A stretch of 52,467 nucleotides of DNA, taken from sequence record PZ379545.1; one strand, 5' to 3'. Within the stretch, counting starts at the first letter, position 1. Each line of letters opens with the position of its first letter. Below the pieces are notes generated by a model that did no database searches, had not been told where the DNA came from, and saw only the letters and a program-made list of their open reading frames with translations. This DNA comes from a phage. Below, in pieces: positions 3,665 through 15,564 of this stretch. The position numbers were made by a program, and so were the translations under genes.

Positions 3665-3712
3665 CGTCTATTTGGCAGATGAATTGGTTGCAATTAAGCA
3701 TGTCCATTTATC

Positions 3713-3729
3713 ATTAGTTGCATGTGAAT
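3713..3729 (+). promoter_or_regulatory. Candidate phage-type promoter motif (ATTAGTTGCATGTGAAT) ahead of the early gene block
   Basis: Motif match at the end of the non-coding repeat region. Confidence 0.4.
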
Positions 3730-4000
3730 AAGACCAAATCTCTGTAAATTCTGCTGAAATTGTGTGACAGATTTTAGAGAGATTATGTCTCCAAGCTAAT
3801 CATTGTAGTTTTCGGCACTTGTTGTGTCACATATAGTCTGTGCAAAAGGTGTGGTTTGCAGGAGTGCAAGAGCTTCGCAATACTAGGAAGTAACCGAGAG
3901 CAGCACACACAGAGATGCTATATAACTCCCTACAACTTTAAGGTGGATTGAGGTAAGACAAGACCTCCACAATCGTTCTGTAGGGAGTTTTCTTTTAACT

Positions 4001-12440: not shown

Positions 12441-13112
12441 ATGTCACACTATGATGACTCTAACATTGCGTTAGAAACCTGCAAGCAGTGGCTCACTGAT
12501 AACGATGCAGTCTATCTAGCCAAGGAAGACGTCATCATTATGTGGGTGCACTTTAATCCAGAATCGAAACGAGGCGAGTGGCAGCGGTACAAGATGAAAG
12601 AGGCTTGCCGCATTATTAAAGCTACTCGCGCAGGGTTTGATGCAATGAAGTATATCAAACCCGAAATGCTTATGCTTGCTGCACAAGAAGAAGAACGTGC
12701 TTACAAGCAGGCTGTTAAATCTCGCTCAACTGTTCCTCCAGAATTCTTTAATCTGGAGCGCGCTGGACACTTCAACAATTTAGAAATGTTGACATTGTGC
12801 ATGTTGCAAGAATTAGTTGGAAGAGGAATGAACATTGAAGCTGTTTGCCTTGGGGAACTCATGAAAGAGTTGTTCTTGACAAAGGGCTTTGCTGTGCCTA
12901 ATCGCACACTTCGTTGGAAACTGCTTCGTGCTGTTGAAGAGGAAGCTGGTGTGATTATACGTGACCGAACCAACCGCATGACCGTAACAGGTGTGGGACG
13001 TTTTGTTGCGATTCAAATCGAGGGCATTGATGACTCGATAACAACTGAACTCACTGTCGCTGAGACAAAGGATTTAGTGATTAAATCAATCGAACGATTC
13101 AATATGTATTGA
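12441..13112 (+). CDS. Hypothetical protein
   Basis: 223-aa ORF starting right after the upstream stop. Confidence 0.65.
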   Translation: MSHYDDSNIALETCKQWLTDNDAVYLAKEDVIIMWVHFNPESKRGEWQRYKMKEACRIIKATRAGFDAMKYIKPEMLMLAAQEEERAYKQAVKSRSTVPPEFFNLERAGHFNNLEMLTLCMLQELVGRGMNIEAVCLGELMKELFLTKGFAVPNRTLRWKLLRAVEEEAGVIIRDRTNRMTVTGVGRFVAIQIEGIDDSITTELTVAETKDLVIKSIERFNMY

Positions 13113-13143
13113 GTTGTTTGTTAAATCAGAGCAGTTCTGAAGC

Positions 13144-13164
13144 ATTAGTTGAATGTGAAAAGAG
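13144..13164 (+). promoter_or_regulatory. Candidate phage-type promoter motif (ATTAGTTGAATGTGAAAAGAG)
   Basis: Motif match about 70 nt upstream of the strongly codon-biased gene at 13236. Confidence 0.45.
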
Positions 13165-13235
13165 AAAGGCTCTTTAATTTTATCTAAGTCACGTCACCGT
13201 GGCGTGCAAAACTATTTAACATAAGGTATATACAA

Positions 13236-13574
13236 ATGGCTAAGATTGTAACCGTAACTCAGTATGAAGCTAACGATGGTTCCCTGTTCCTGAGCGAAGC
13301 TGAATGTAACGCACACGATTTCAAACTGGAAAACGGTGCTAAAATCGACGCAGCTGTTGAAGCGTTCGCTAACACCATGAAACTGGCTGACCGTTCTCGC
13401 TCCATGCAGAGCAACACCGTTGCATCCTTCCTGGCATTCTACCTGCCGTGGGTTGAAGCTGGTTGCCCGGAAGTTGAACGTACTGTGTTCGACACTCCGA
13501 AAGAAGTTAAAGTTGCCGAAGCAGAAGTAGTTGAAGCTGTTGAAGCTGCTGTTGAAGAAGCTCCGGTATTCTAA
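13236..13574 (+). CDS. Hypothetical abundant small protein with acidic Glu/Ala/Val-rich C-terminus
   Basis: 112-aa ORF with markedly different codon choice from neighbours (CTG, CGT, CCG, GAA, AAA preferred); TAAGGT RBS. Confidence 0.7.
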   Translation: MAKIVTVTQYEANDGSLFLSEAECNAHDFKLENGAKIDAAVEAFANTMKLADRSRSMQSNTVASFLAFYLPWVEAGCPEVERTVFDTPKEVKVAEAEVVEAVEAAVEEAPVF

Positions 13575-14468
13575 GTTGCTGATGGCAAACTTGAGAGACT
13601 AAGCTAAATCGATCTGGCACGCACTGGAAGATTTCCGGTACTGCCTTGAACCCATTCCAGAGTGAGTGGGCTTCAATGAGCATTCTTGTGATTAGAGTTG
13701 GGAGGTAGGCCGATGCCCAAGCTCGTGGCCCAGACAAGAGTGTTCATTGAAGTAGTTTTCTGAGTCTTACGACGGGCCTAAGCTGCCTGAAGTTATTGCG
13801 ACTGTTTTATTCATTTAAAATAAATGCAAACGATTCTGAAATGCGAGTTGCAGCTTAATTAAATTTAAGTTCTCTCCGTGGTCTTCCAATCCCATGTAAC
13901 CAAATTTGGCGCATTGTGGCTTCGAGATGTGATTAATAAATCGGAGCAATAATTAATTTGTATTCTGCGATGCAAAGCAGGCTTAAGTCCTCCAGTGCGC
14001 GTGGGGATGTGACAGAGTACAAACTTAATTATGCAGTTGGATATTTCTAGAGGACGGACGAGCACACTGGAATGTCTTCAATTGGTTTAGTGTGAGAAGC
14101 TATGCTAATTTGAAACGTAACTCCTTGAGGAAGTGCTCCTCTGGATTTCCCTCCTCACAGGAATCTCAAACCTGTGGCAGCGACTTCGAAGCTGCACTGC
14201 GTAACCTTATTCGCTTTAAGTGAATTGCCCTGAGCATGGAAATAAACTGCTCAAACCAATGATGCCCATAACGATGGGATAAGTTAGGTTGCCTGTTGGT
14301 ACTTGGGTTCAACACCTGCTTGCACTCGCAAAGTAGTGCCTCGTACCTGAGATGAAGTGAGTCGGGACCATCAATCCCACGTTATGTCAAAACACAGTAG
14401 GCGACTCACAGATTCTACAAGCCTCGCAGTTCGGGAAAACCTGCGTTACCAAAACCCACACCCTATTC

Positions 14469-14564
14469 GGACGAGTAGCTCAGAAGGTCTGCTCCAGAGC
14501 TTAGTCAGGTAGAGCAATCTGTTAGACAGATGTGTCGTTGGTTCGAATCCAACCTTGTCCACCA
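14469..14564 (+). tRNA. tRNA-like element with encoded CCA; anticodon arm unresolved, possible pseudo-tRNA
   Basis: 7-bp acceptor stem (GGACGAG / CTTGTCC, one G-U), perfect T-arm (GTTGG-TTCGAAT-CCAAC), discriminator A and CCA. D-arm halves TAGCTCAG and GGTAGAGC are split by about 24 nt; best anticodon hairpin has a 5-nt loop. Confidence 0.4.
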
Positions 14565-14594
14565 GCTTTAATAACCCGCAACACTGGAGTCCTC

Positions 14595-14735
14595 ATGGAT
14601 TTTGATGCACTTGATAATTTAGACTTCGGTGCTGCCGAAGAAGCAATTGAAGAACTGAAGAAGAAGCAGGACGAAGAAGCAATCGTTCCTGGTGCTGGCG
14701 ACAACGACTGCTCAAGTGGTGCGTGCGCCATCTAA
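14595..14735 (+). CDS. Hypothetical small acidic protein
   Basis: 46-aa ORF, ATG 5 nt after GGAG. Confidence 0.4.
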   Translation: MDFDALDNLDFGAAEEAIEELKKKQDEEAIVPGAGDNDCSSGACAI

Positions 14736-14743
14736 GGTGATTC

Positions 14744-14980
14744 ATGCAACAGCTTAAATCAATCTTTCTTGGCGTCTTGACTGCATTGGGTATTCTCCTT
14801 GCAGTGTTCCTCAAAGGCAAAAGCTCAGGCAAAGCCGAGGAGCGTCAGGAAGCCAAAGAGAAGCAATTCGATTCCATTAAAGAATCTATCGAGATTAAAA
14901 CGCATGTTCAGAAAGAAGTGTCTAGCAGTTCTGATAGCAATGTCGATAGTGAGTTGCTCTCAAAGTGGGTTCGTAAGTGA
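14744..14980 (+). CDS. Putative i-spanin-like membrane protein
   Basis: 78 aa with N-terminal hydrophobic helix (IFLGVLTALGILLAVFL) then charged region; contains a nested lipoprotein ORF in another frame. Confidence 0.45.
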   Translation: MQQLKSIFLGVLTALGILLAVFLKGKSSGKAEERQEAKEKQFDSIKESIEIKTHVQKEVSSSSDSNVDSELLSKWVRK

Positions 14981-15113
14981 TTATTGCATGATTGCACAAC
15001 CAATCTATTTGGATGTTGCAGAAGTGAAAGTTTTGTCACGCGAAACCAAAACACAGATTTTAGTCCACAATGAAACGTGGGCACAAAAGTGTTCGAAACT
15101 TACCCGACAGTGA
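14904..15113 (+). CDS. Putative o-spanin-like lipoprotein, nested and overlapping the previous gene
   Basis: 69-aa ORF with lipobox-like LAVLIAMSIVSC; starts inside 14744-14980 in the +1 frame. Confidence 0.4.
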   Translation: MFRKKCLAVLIAMSIVSCSQSGFVSDYCMIAQPIYLDVAEVKVLSRETKTQILVHNETWAQKCSKLTRQ

Positions 15114-15496
15114 GTGAACATGGCCTAGCTAGTTGGTGGTGTAAAAGACTGACCAAGGTGACGACAGCCAAAGTATGGTCGAGTGGGATGCGCGACTTTA
15201 AATAACGTGAACCCAACCTTTCGAGGAAGTCGGTGAAAGCCCGCACGTTGCTCTGGGCATAACAATTGAAATTGCTGCCTCGCATTGAACGCGAGAAAGT
15301 TCAGGTGGTCACTTCCTAGAACAGTGTCCGAGAACACCCTCGCCAAAGTGCTTGAGAACGTTAGCTCTGTCTTGCCAGCATTAATGGCACGTTGGCCGCG
15401 TAAAGGCCACAGCGTCTGACCAACGTATCGGTTAAATCCGGTTCTAATTCAGGCTCCGGTGTATAAACAAAAGCCTACCAAATTCAATGGGATTTT

Positions 15497-15564
15497 CGTA
15501 TGTACGGGCTTGACCGTGGTGAAACGACCTGACTGGTTCGATTCCAGTGAATCCCCCGAACAAT
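15497..15564 (+). other. tRNA-like acceptor plus T-arm element without recognisable anticodon arm
   Basis: GGGATTT / GAATCCC acceptor pairing and perfect T-arm ACTGG-TTCGATT-CCAGT; the 36 nt between cannot be folded into D and anticodon arms by eye. Confidence 0.3.

What the first reader, a model, noticed from the sequence alone, without database searches (positions are those of the whole stretch)
14469..14564. tRNA-like gene with canonical acceptor, T-arm and CCA but aberrant D and anticodon regions
The element has a 7-bp acceptor stem, a perfect T-arm with loop TTCGAAT, a discriminator base and encoded CCA, and the canonical D-arm halves TAGCTCAG and GGTAGAGC. The D-arm halves are separated by about 24 extra nt and the best anticodon-position hairpin (ATCTG-TTAGA-CAGAT) has a 5-nt loop. 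It may be an unusual or interrupted tRNA, a pseudo-tRNA, or a tRNA mimic used for RNA processing or against tRNA-targeting host defences.
Basis: seen in the sequence. Interest (0 to 1): 0.6.

Follow-up and report, generated by a model that had tools for sequence, protein, structure and literature searches.

The report
Conserved aberrant tRNA-like gene in coliphage
This is a real, selectively maintained tRNA-derived gene of phiEcoM-GJ1-like E. coli phages (annotated elsewhere as "tRNA-Arg") that has a 24-base hairpin insert in its D-loop and a too-short, freely mutating anticodon loop, so it probably makes a tRNA-shaped RNA that does not read codons.

Summary
Window 14469-14564 (+) has a 7-bp acceptor stem, a perfect T arm, both D-arm halves separated by 24 extra bases, a 5-bp/5-nt hairpin where the anticodon arm should be, and an encoded CCA. 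ARAGORN and Rfam call no tRNA. The window is a Carltongylesvirus (Chaseviridae) genome. The element is the ortholog of phiEcoM-GJ1 "tRNA-Arg, may contain an intron".

Across 33 copies (15 alleles), 73 core positions (acceptor, D stem and consensus bases, anticodon stem, variable loop, T arm) show only 2 variable columns. The 5-nt loop shows 4 of 5 variable columns, with alleles TTCGA, TTAGA (window only), TTAGG, TAAGA and TCGAA. The middle of the insert and the flanks also vary freely. The tRNA body is therefore under purifying selection and the "anticodon" is not.

Some relatives lack exactly this element, so it is accessory. No splicing machinery is annotated.

Best reading (about 0.45): a tRNA-shaped, non-decoding RNA cut from a polycistronic phage transcript by host tRNA-processing enzymes. 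Its role is unproven; a decoy or a processing signal are the candidates. A non-canonical decoding tRNA is the main rival.

Similar D-loop-hairpin tRNA-like genes with odd anticodon loops occur in unrelated uncultured phage contigs.

The parts
14469..14564 (+). Whole tRNA-like element (96 nt), ortholog of phiEcoM-GJ1 gt01 'tRNA-Arg, may contain an intron'
14469..14475 (+). Acceptor stem, 5' strand GGACGAG
   Evidence: Pairs with 14554-14560. All 7 pairs are kept in all 15 alleles. Pair 5:68 alternates between G-C and G-U.
14554..14560 (+). Acceptor stem, 3' strand CTTGTCC
14478..14481 (+). D-stem 5' strand GCTC. It is preceded by U8 A9 and followed by A14 G15.
   Evidence: Invariant. Pairs with GAGC 14512-14515.
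14484..14507 (+). 24-nt insert in the D loop. Bases 14484-14502 can form the hairpin AAGGTCTG-CTC-CAGAGCTT. GCTT at 14499-14502 is a second possible D-stem 5' strand.
   Evidence: The insert alone folds at -5.8 kcal/mol. Its middle is variable, with three insert types. One compensatory pair (U-A to A-U) links 14493 and 14498. The alternative D stem is also 100% paired.
14508..14515 (+). GGTA (G18 G19 U20 A21 consensus) followed by the D-stem 3' strand GAGC
   Evidence: Invariant. Aligned to the D arm by the Rfam tRNA model.
14517..14531 (+). Anticodon-position hairpin: 5-bp stem ATCTG/CAGAT with 5-nt loop TTAGA (14522-14526). A at 14524 is a substitution private to this window; most relatives have C.
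   Evidence: The stem is invariant. The loop has 5 alleles and 4 of 5 columns vary. The Rfam alignment shows a loop 2 nt shorter than the model. ARAGORN parses the arm as a 4-bp stem plus an A.G mismatch with the 7-nt loop G-U-UAG-A-C.
14532..14536 (+). Variable loop GTGTC (G46 and C48 consensus)
   Evidence: Invariant
14537..14553 (+). T arm: GTTGG / TTCGAAT / CCAAC
   Evidence: The only variation is T or C at loop position 60.
14561..14564 (+). Discriminator A plus encoded CCA
   Evidence: Not conserved. Relatives have ACCC, GCCA or GCTC.

Best explanation
The element is a genuine, selectively maintained tRNA-derived gene, the Carltongylesvirus 'tRNA-Arg' locus. It carries a hairpin-forming expansion of about 24 nt in its D loop. 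Its anticodon arm is two nucleotides shorter than any canonical tRNA: either a 5-bp stem with a 5-nt loop, or equivalently a 4-bp stem with a Watson-Crick 32-38 pair.

Shown:
- The tRNA body is conserved far more than neutral sites.
- The loop and the tip of the insert evolve at about the neutral rate.
- The element is accessory. It is absent from PYps3T-like phages, and a terminator-like hairpin occupies the same slot in BSBP01.
- No sigma-70-type promoter, phage-promoter motif or intrinsic terminator was found for it.

Inferred:
- It is transcribed by the phage T7-like RNA polymerase as part of a long transcript starting at the promoter motif at 13144.
- Host RNase P cuts at its 5' end, and host 3' trimming and CCA enzymes finish its 3' end, releasing a stable tRNA-shaped RNA.
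- That RNA acts through its L-shaped body, not through codon reading.

My best guess for the role is competition for, or titration of, a host tRNA-binding factor such as a tRNA-targeting defence nuclease. Cutting the transcript just upstream of the small ORF and the spanin genes would be a possible second effect. In this window the anticodon-position triplet is UAG instead of the family's usual UCG.
For: - Identity: the window is a Carltongylesvirus genome and the element is orthologous to annotated tRNA-Arg genes.
- Selection on the core: 73 positions, pi 0-0.02, 2 variable columns. Comparators are the loop (pi 0.18, 4 of 5 columns), the insert middle (pi 0.14, 6 of 14), the flanking spacers (pi 0.20-0.30) and spanin third codon positions (16 of 55). 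Fisher p=5e-5 for loop versus core and 4e-5 for core versus third positions.
- All loop-variant lineages keep an intact core.
- All stems are 100% paired in 15 alleles.
- Every class-I tertiary-consensus base is present: U8, A14, G15/C48, GG, A21, G46, G53-C61 and the T loop TTCGAAT.
- No tRNA finder accepts the element as it stands. It is accepted once the insert is removed in silico.
- No sigma-70-like promoter and no + strand terminator lie in 13000-15500. The nearest phage-promoter motif upstream is at 13144.
- Precise absence in PYps3T and a different structured insert in BSBP01, also reported by Hammerl et al. 2022 (PMC8762354).
- No RNA ligase, polynucleotide kinase or splicing endonuclease is annotated in the well-annotated relative Mangalitsa.
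- Unrelated uncultured phage contigs carry tRNA-like genes of the same layout: a D-loop hairpin insert plus a non-7-nt anticodon loop. L084 has a 5-bp/5-nt arm and the identical T arm.
Against: - There is no expression, processing or binding data.
- The majority loop allele reads as anticodon UCG with U33 and A37. CGA makes up 14% of Arg codons in this phage, about twice the E. coli share as I recall it. An ordinary codon-supplement role for the ancestral allele therefore cannot be excluded.
- Covariation evidence is nearly nil because the stems never vary.
- Thermodynamic folding is not better than shuffled sequence (z -1.1 to -1.8).
- RNase P cleavage alone would not need a conserved D arm and anticodon stem, so 'punctuation' alone does not explain the conservation.
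- The decoy idea has no identified target.
Confidence: 0.45

Rival explanations
1. It is a working decoding tRNA with a tolerated D-loop expansion: tRNA-Arg(UCG) in most relatives, supplying the CGA codon. In this phage it would be retargeted to UAG (reading CUA/CUG) or inactivated by the C-to-A change at 14524.
For: tRNAscan-SE annotations as tRNA-Arg appear in several records. ARAGORN calls Arg(tcg) or Leu(tag) once the insert is removed. U33 and a purine at 37 are kept in all five loop alleles. CGA is 14% of Arg codons in the phage. Other phage D-loop-expanded genes score above the Rfam tRNA threshold and sit inside tRNA arrays.
Against: The anticodon-position loop is the fastest-evolving part, changing roughly 30 times faster per site than the core. 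This is the opposite of what orthologous decoders show. The alleles would read Arg, Leu, Leu and Ser codons on one unchanged body. ArgRS needs C35 (established knowledge). The 'Leu' alleles include G73 discriminators, although E. coli LeuRS needs A73 (established knowledge). The anticodon arm is one stacking layer short. Rfam and ARAGORN reject the intact sequence.
Confidence: 0.25
2. It is a dead relic. A tRNA gene was broken by a partial duplication or insertion in the D arm and a 2-nt loss in the anticodon loop, and it is carried along without function.
For: There are two structural lesions. Direct repeats flank the insert: GCTCAG...GCTCAG in the GJ1 type and GCTCAG...GCTTAG here. The element is dispensable in PYps3T-like phages. 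SA91KD carries a further 6-nt deletion.
Against: Only 2 of 73 core columns vary while the adjacent spacers, the insert tip and the loop vary freely. The binomial probability is 6e-9 at the third-position rate. The low diversity ends exactly at the tRNA borders, which a recent sweep of a larger block would not produce.
Confidence: 0.1
3. It is an intron-containing tRNA. The roughly 21-24-nt insert is removed at the RNA level to give a normal 75-nt tRNA, as the GJ1 record's note 'may contain an intron' suggests.
For: In-silico removal restores a D arm that ARAGORN accepts. Archaeal tRNAs do carry short introns in the D loop (PMC3241643).
Against: Bacterial and phage tRNA introns are self-splicing group I or II introns of hundreds of nucleotides, located in the anticodon loop (established knowledge). 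E. coli has no bulge-helix-bulge splicing endonuclease. No RNA ligase, kinase or splicing enzyme is annotated in the phage. The insert sequence is not conserved between types. Removal would still leave the short anticodon arm.
Confidence: 0.04
4. It is a class II tRNA-Leu(CAG). In this reading 'GCTYA-GTCAGGT-AGAGC' is the anticodon arm and the ATCTG/CAGAT hairpin is a long variable arm whose loop is free to vary. This is ARAGORN's call for the GJ1 copy.
For: ARAGORN calls GJ1 tRNA-Leu(cag), 95 nt, score 110. A variable-arm loop would explain the hypervariable 5-nt loop. GTCAGGT is invariant except in SA91KD.
Against: The D stem in that parse has only one Watson-Crick pair and one G.U pair in GJ1. 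No D stem at all can be drawn for the window-type insert, and ARAGORN does not call it. The anticodon stem ends in an A.A mismatch. Four to five nt follow the variable arm. 'AGTCAGGTAGAGC' fits the D-arm consensus and Rfam aligns it there. SA91KD deletes the supposed anticodon.
Confidence: 0.04
5. It acts at the DNA level, as an attachment, recombination or homing site, or it encodes a small protein.
For: Some records annotate small ORFs across it on either strand. HNH endonuclease genes lie nearby in some relatives.
Against: It has no similarity to any E. coli genome sequence, so it is not a host tRNA or att copy. The phages are virulent. The 1-nt and 6-nt indels between alleles break any reading frame. 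The conservation pattern follows tRNA structure.
Confidence: 0.03

Closest known systems
phiEcoM-GJ1 gt01 'tRNA-Arg, may contain an intron' (NC_010106 14456-14550); also the ST32 'tRNA-Arg of 95 bp' and the tRNAscan-SE tRNA-Arg calls in Ecp_YSF, Pel53 and Tiny
   Same: Same locus and same gene. It sits between the accessory region and the small ORF plus spanin genes, and the tRNA body is identical.
   Different: The window copy has TTAGA instead of TTCGA in the loop, a single private C-to-A change at 14524. It has the commoner insert type, whereas GJ1 and ST32 carry a different 23-nt insert. Annotation of this gene is inconsistent. Mangalitsa, whose copy differs from the window's only at that base, was published as having 0 tRNAs. 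Hammerl et al. speak of 'arginine or leucine'.
Ordinary phage-encoded tRNAs (T4, T5 and others), used for codon supplementation or to replace host tRNAs destroyed by defence nucleases (van den Berg 2023, PMC10264068; Azam 2024, PMC11555353; D-loop differences noted in PMC12475279)
   Same: It is a phage-borne, accessory, tRNA-shaped gene. CCA is not always encoded, as in T4 (from memory). It varies in regions that nucleases or synthetases contact.
   Different: Those tRNAs have a canonical cloverleaf, a conserved anticodon and a 7-nt loop. This one has a 30-nt D loop, a short anticodon arm and a drifting loop.
D-loop-hairpin tRNA-like genes in uncultured phage contigs (IMG/VR loci L044-L094, found here)
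   Same: The layout is the same: a 7-bp acceptor, TAGCTCAG-[16-40 nt, usually a hairpin]-GGTAGAGC, a non-canonical anticodon arm (loops of 4-10 nt, or a 6-bp stem) and a normal T arm. L084 has the same 5-bp/5-nt arm and the identical T arm GTTGG-TTCGAAT-CCAAC. The largest family shows covariation in the acceptor, T and D-loop-hairpin stems. Most of those tested score above the Rfam tRNA threshold and lie in tRNA arrays.
   Different: There is no sequence homology beyond tRNA consensus. Their insert hairpins are stronger (5-9 bp). In the largest family the loop motif YGAAA is conserved, whereas the Carltongylesvirus loop drifts. No match was found in cultured-phage GenBank records, and I found no paper describing them.
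tRNA-like RNAs released by tRNA-processing enzymes but not used for decoding, such as mascRNA from MALAT1 or T4 stable RNAs species 1 and 2 (from memory, not checked here)
   Same: It works like them in the proposed model. An acceptor/T-arm module directs RNase P and CCA processing, and the anticodon loop is poorly conserved.
   Different: Membership cannot be claimed. There is no homology and no processing data here.
Archaeal tRNAs with non-canonical introns in the D loop (PMC3241643)
   Same: A short extra segment interrupts the D region of an otherwise normal tRNA gene.
   Different: Those introns are bounded by bulge-helix-bulge motifs and removed by an archaeal splicing endonuclease, which is absent from E. 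coli and not annotated in the phage.

Membership tests
Canonical elongator tRNA (Rfam RF00005 cloverleaf) | 7-bp acceptor stem plus a discriminator base | tested here: met
   All 7 pairs are kept in 15 alleles, with pair 5:68 alternating G-C and G-U.
Canonical elongator tRNA (Rfam RF00005 cloverleaf) | T arm of 5 bp with a 7-nt loop UUCRANY and a G53-C61 pair | tested here: met
   GTTGG/TTCGAAT/CCAAC, aligned by the Rfam model.
Canonical elongator tRNA (Rfam RF00005 cloverleaf) | D arm with a 3-4-bp stem and a 7-11-nt loop | tested here: not met
   The stem and the consensus bases A14, G18 G19 and A21 are present, but the loop is 30 nt because of the 24-nt insert.
Canonical elongator tRNA (Rfam RF00005 cloverleaf) | Anticodon arm with a 5-bp stem and a 7-nt loop | tested here: not met
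   The arm is 5 bp with a 5-nt loop. The Rfam alignment shows 2 loop positions deleted. ARAGORN can only reach 7 nt by opening the G-C pair and accepting an A.G mismatch with no nucleotide 26.
Canonical elongator tRNA (Rfam RF00005 cloverleaf) | Score at or above the curated threshold, or detection by a tRNA finder | tested here: not met
   27.5 bits against a gathering score of 29, and only for model positions 9-63. ARAGORN finds 0 genes. tRNAscan-SE was not available to me.
Canonical elongator tRNA (Rfam RF00005 cloverleaf) | Anticodon conserved among orthologs | tested here: not met
   Five loop alleles occur in 33 copies; 4 of 5 loop columns vary against 2 of 73 in the core.
Canonical elongator tRNA (Rfam RF00005 cloverleaf) | Aminoacylation and use on the ribosome | not testable with these tools
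   Needs charged-tRNA sequencing or an acid-gel northern blot from infected cells.
Class II tRNA (Leu/Ser/Tyr type with a long variable arm) | A D stem of at least 3 pairs upstream of a separate anticodon arm, with the long variable arm next to the T arm | tested here: not met
   ARAGORN's GJ1 parse has only 1 Watson-Crick pair and 1 G.U pair in the D stem. The window type is not called.
tmRNA | tRNA-like domain plus an mRNA-like tag reading frame | tested here: not met
   ARAGORN and Rfam find no tmRNA. The element is only 96 nt.
Intron-containing tRNA (group I/II, or bulge-helix-bulge type) | A self-splicing intron fold, or a BHB motif plus a splicing endonuclease and ligase | tested here: not met
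   The 24-nt insert is too short for a group I or II intron. No Rfam intron hit. No ligase or endonuclease for RNA splicing is annotated in Mangalitsa. Splicing itself was not tested.
Phage attachment site / copy of a host tRNA gene end | Sequence identity to a host tRNA gene | tested here: not met
   No match in 5,426 complete E. coli genomes at E<=1.
D-loop-hairpin phage tRNA-like genes (informal group defined here) | An insert of 16 nt or more between A14-R15 and G18-G19 that can form a hairpin, together with a non-7-nt anticodon loop and otherwise canonical arms | tested here: met
   The window insert folds at -5.8 kcal/mol, compared with -2.3 to -14 in the other loci that carry a true insert. 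The loop is 5 nt, as in L084. The GJ1-type insert folds weakly (-0.8), so this feature is not met by all alleles.

The most novel reading that the evidence does not exclude
The element is the only cultured-phage, E. coli-tractable representative found here of an undescribed class of phage tRNA mimics. The class is defined by an L-shaped core kept by selection, a hairpin grafted onto the D loop at the tRNA elbow, and an anticodon arm of non-canonical length. These RNAs would not decode. They would act as decoys, inhibitors or sensors for tRNA-binding host factors such as anticodon nucleases or other tRNA-targeting defences. The drifting loop would then reflect either irrelevance or an arms race.
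Probability: 0.25. Interest if true: 0.75.

Novelty: new variant of a known kind. Interest (0 to 1): 0.45.

Why it matters
Phage tRNA genes are usually read as codon supplements or, more recently, as replacements for host tRNAs cut by defence nucleases. In this case the tRNA body is held constant by selection while the anticodon loop drifts and the D loop carries a hairpin. That points to a use of the tRNA shape that is independent of decoding.

Genome annotation currently calls this gene tRNA-Arg, tRNA-Leu or nothing, depending on the tool. The host is E. coli, and natural variants lacking the element exist, so the question can be tested directly at the bench.

The same layout recurs in uncultured phages, which suggests the case is not a one-off.

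Tried and rejected
1. Phage-promoter mimicry. The D-arm-like GCTTAGTCAGGTAGAGC resembles the phage promoter core ATTAGTTGGA, but it needs indels to align and no promoter match falls in the element. Rejected.
2. Class II tRNA-Leu(CAG) reading from ARAGORN's GJ1 call. Rejected for lack of a D stem, and because ARAGORN's own relaxed-threshold calls for the window are mutually inconsistent: ???(ctta), or Thr(agt) with a 7-nt 'intron'.
3. Covariation proof of the fold. It is underpowered. The stems are invariant, and the only double change is one pair in the insert mini-hairpin, a single event. The data cannot decide which GCTY strand pairs with GAGC.
4. Thermodynamic folding. The MFE structures break the tRNA arms and the z-scores are only -0.9 to -1.8. 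Uninformative.
5. Origin from a host tRNA. No E. coli match. Bacterial tRNAs sharing the 5' end are Val, Phe and Lys genes of unrelated phyla, so the similarity is generic.
6. More variants from metagenomes. Only two further contigs were found, both with the common TTCGA loop.
7. Protein-coding reading on either strand. Rejected because of frame-breaking indels between alleles.
8. Literature search for D-loop insertions in phage tRNAs. Nothing relevant in the held library.
9. GenBank cultured-phage homologs of the metagenomic D-loop-hairpin families. None.
10. A second D-arm consensus (TAGTTCAG...GGTAGAAC). Only 3 loci in IMG/VR, not examined further.

Full report
**What is there**

- GGACGAG (14469-14475) pairs with CTTGTCC (14554-14560).
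- U8 A9 are followed by GCTC-AG (14478-14483).
- A 24-nt insert, AAGGTCTGCTCCAGAGCTTAGTCA, occupies 14484-14507.
- GGTA-GAGC follows at 14508-14515, then A26 at 14516.
- The hairpin ATCTG-TTAGA-CAGAT lies at 14517-14531.
- Then come GTGTC (14532-14536), the T arm GTTGG-TTCGAAT-CCAAC (14537-14553), discriminator A (14561) and CCA (14562-14564).

ARAGORN finds no tRNA or tmRNA anywhere in the window. Rfam at gathering thresholds finds nothing. With permissive thresholds the Rfam tRNA model matches 14498-14553 at 27.5 bits (gathering score 29, E=0.0012). It covers model positions 9-63 only, uses the second D-arm copy, and shows an anticodon loop two positions short. So no standard cloverleaf was missed.

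**Where it comes from**

The window is a Carltongylesvirus (Chaseviridae, phiEcoM-GJ1-like) genome. The orthologous 95-nt stretch of phiEcoM-GJ1 is annotated 'tRNA-Arg, may contain an intron'. tRNAscan-SE-based records call a 71-nt tRNA-Arg in Ecp_YSF and Pel53. The ST32 paper reports a 'tRNA-Arg of 95 bp' (PMC6266442). The Mangalitsa paper, which used ARAGORN, reports 0 tRNAs (PMC6753284), although its copy differs from the window's by a single base. Hammerl et al. speak of 'tRNA for arginine or leucine' (PMC8762354). ARAGORN calls the GJ1 copy a class II tRNA-Leu(CAG). The gene is therefore known as an annotation, but it is inconsistently named and never analysed.

**Comparative evidence**

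I collected 33 copies from GenBank phages, IMG/VR and two metagenome contigs. They fall into 15 alleles.

| Region | Diversity (pi) | Variable columns |
|---|---|---|
| Core: element positions 1-20, 35-53, 59-92 | 0-0.02 | 2 of 73 |
| 5-nt loop | 0.18 | 4 of 5 |
| Middle of the insert | 0.14 | 6 of 14 |
| Flanking spacers | 0.20-0.30 | 25 of 45 |
| Spanin gene, third codon positions | 0.10 | 16 of 55 |

The two variable core columns are a C/U opposite G5, which keeps the pair, and T-loop position 60. The five loop alleles are TTCGA (most copies), TTAGA (this window only), TTAGG, TAAGA and TCGAA. The insert comes in three types.

Fisher tests give p=5e-5 for loop versus core and p=4e-5 for core versus third positions. 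The binomial probability of 2 or fewer variable columns out of 73 at the third-position rate is 6e-9.

The tRNA body is thus under purifying selection, while the 'anticodon' and the insert tip are not. Lineages with altered loops keep an untouched core. Stems are 100% paired in all alleles, but they never vary, so covariation cannot prove the fold or choose between the two possible D-stem 5' strands. The only compensatory change, U-A to A-U, lies in a 3-bp mini-hairpin inside the insert. It is a single event.

**Anatomy**

If the first GCTC pairs with GAGC, every class-I tertiary consensus base is in place: U8, A14, G15 with C48, GG, A21, G46 and G53-C61. The extra 24 nt then sit in the naturally length-variable part of the D loop, at the outside of the elbow.

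In the window-type insert, bases 14484-14502 can form a 7-bp hairpin with one G.G mismatch. The insert alone folds at -5.8 kcal/mol. The GJ1-type insert folds weakly, at -0.8 kcal/mol.

The anticodon arm is A26.G44, then five Watson-Crick pairs, then a 5-nt loop. Equivalently, it is a 4-bp stem with a G32-C38 pair closing U33-NNN-R37. Either way it is one stacking layer shorter than a canonical tRNA.

Deleting about 21 nt in silico makes ARAGORN call tRNA-Leu(tag) for the window and tRNA-Arg(tcg) for GJ1 at default settings. This shows that the insert is what blocks detection.

**Context**

- No sigma-70-like promoter and no + strand intrinsic terminator lie in 13000-15500.
- The phage-promoter motif ATTAGTTGGA occurs at 13144 upstream and not again before the element. 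The element is therefore presumably part of a long phage-polymerase transcript and needs processing to be released.
- An A/U-rich spacer, a GGAG ribosome-binding site and a conserved 46-codon ORF (14595-14735) follow, and then the spanin genes.
- PYps3T lacks exactly the element. BSBP01 has a terminator-like hairpin in the same slot. TH23 has an extra insertion just downstream. The element is accessory, and the slot is a hot spot for small structured inserts.
- Mangalitsa's curated annotation lists no RNA ligase, polynucleotide kinase or RNA-splicing endonuclease.
- The element matches nothing in 5,426 E. coli genomes.

**A wider pattern**

Scanning IMG/VR for TAGCTCAG-N16-40-GGTAGAGC-N18-30-GGTTCGAANCC gave 51 loci outside this genus. 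A few are a tRNA fragment followed by a normal tRNA.

Most are tRNA-like genes with a clear hairpin inserted in the D loop. They also have a non-canonical anticodon arm: an 8-nt loop in the largest family, loops of 4-10 nt in the others, and a 6-bp stem in L052. L084 has the same 5-bp/5-nt arm and the identical T arm as the window element.

Of the fourteen loci scanned with Rfam, most of the insert-bearing genes score above the tRNA gathering threshold as full-length matches with a long insertion, and several lie inside phage tRNA arrays that also contain a normal isoacceptor. The largest family shows compensatory changes in the acceptor, T, anticodon and D-loop-hairpin stems.

None of these families has a relative among cultured-phage GenBank records. 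I found no paper on D-loop insertions in phage tRNAs in the held library. This pattern is a lead, not a settled family.

**Interpretation**

A decaying pseudogene is hard to reconcile with the conservation pattern.

A standard decoder is hard to reconcile with three things: an anticodon loop that evolves roughly 30 times faster per site than the body; alleles that would read Arg, Leu and Ser codons on one body with mixed A/G discriminators; and a shortened anticodon arm.

Splicing has no known machinery in E. coli or in the phage.

I therefore favour, at about 0.45, a tRNA-shaped non-decoding RNA. Host RNase P and 3' trimming/CCA enzymes would cut it from the transcript, and it would act through its L-shaped body. 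The specific role is inferred, not shown. My best guess is competition for a tRNA-binding host factor such as a tRNA-targeting defence nuclease. This is in line with recent work on phage tRNAs and such defences (PMC10264068, PMC11555353, PMC12475279). Transcript punctuation upstream of the small ORF and the spanin genes is a possible additional or alternative effect.

The main rival, at about 0.25, is a non-canonical but working tRNA-Arg(UCG). CGA is 14% of Arg codons in this phage, about twice the E. coli share as I recall it. In that case the window copy, with UAG, would be retargeted or dead.

**Verdict**

- The gene is already annotated in relatives, but its nature is unresolved.
- It is best filed as a new variant of a known kind (phage-encoded tRNA or tRNA-like gene).
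- Interest is moderate, raised by experimental tractability in E. coli and by the recurrence of the layout in uncultured phages.

Noticed in passing
IMG/VR loci L044-L094 (e.g. L044 7875-7964, L053 8612-8706, L064 5919-6009, L084 4156-4269, L060 202-298 and 474-564): Unrelated, mostly large uncultured phage contigs carry tRNA-like genes with a 16-40-nt hairpin inserted in the D loop and non-canonical anticodon arms (loops of 4-10 nt, or a 6-bp stem). They often sit inside tRNA arrays beside a normal isoacceptor. The largest family (acceptor GGTATTR, loop AACGAAAG) shows covariation in the acceptor, T, anticodon and D-loop-hairpin stems. No cultured-phage homologs and no literature were found.
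   Followed up: partly
window 14418-14454: A 37-nt non-coding island (...CGCAGTTCGGGAAAACCTGCGTTACCAAAACCC, with a possible 5-bp stem CGCAG/CTGCG) lies just upstream of the element. It is almost invariant (pi 0.019) among highly variable flanks. It is kept even in phages that lack the tRNA-like element (PYps3T, BSBP01). It is unique in the window. Function unknown.
   Followed up: partly
L032 (BSBP01) about 400-500; L031 (PYps3T) about 600-640; L030 (TH23) downstream of the element: The slot between the conserved island and the small ORF is a hot spot. It is empty in PYps3T, 4T and 16T. It holds a terminator-like hairpin (AGCCCAG...CTGGGCT followed by a T run) in BSBP01. It carries an extra insertion of about 75 nt after the tRNA-like element in TH23, TH28 and TH33.
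   Followed up: partly
window 14033-14208, compared with L043 (Mangalitsa) 14018-14285: The window lacks the T4 Imm-like 'immunity to superinfection' gene that Mangalitsa carries upstream of the element. About 176 nt of unrelated sequence take its place, so this is another mosaic accessory slot.
   Followed up: partly
window 14595-14735 (+): A conserved 46-codon ORF follows the element, preceded by GGAG. Its product is MDFDALDNLDFGAAEEAIEELKKKQDEEAIVPGAGDNDCSSGACAI, very acidic with a Cys-containing C-terminus. It is present in all relatives, including those without the tRNA-like element, and is annotated only as hypothetical.
   Followed up: no
L064 4880-5286 and 3405-3816: One uncultured jumbo-phage contig (322 kb) with a D-loop-hairpin tRNA-like gene also encodes a GOLLD RNA (288 bits) and a tmRNA (62 bits), both within about 2.5 kb of it.
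   Followed up: no
window 2807, 7243, 11151, 12812 (exact) and 3713, 9527, 12380, 13144, 17556, 19076, 40366 (one mismatch), + strand: The phage-promoter core ATTAGTTGGA, as annotated in phiEcoM-GJ1, recurs on the + strand. It is usually followed by TGTGA/AGTGA-like bases. Matches with up to 2 mismatches exceed the count in every shuffle (85 observed, 57 expected).
   Followed up: partly
L038 (Saprospiraceae MAG) 3672-3760: A bacterial tRNA gene has the same 5' end as the element (GGACGAGTAGCTCAGTCGGTAGAGCA). It runs into non-tRNA sequence after the D arm and is not called by ARAGORN. It may carry an intron or be truncated.
   Followed up: no
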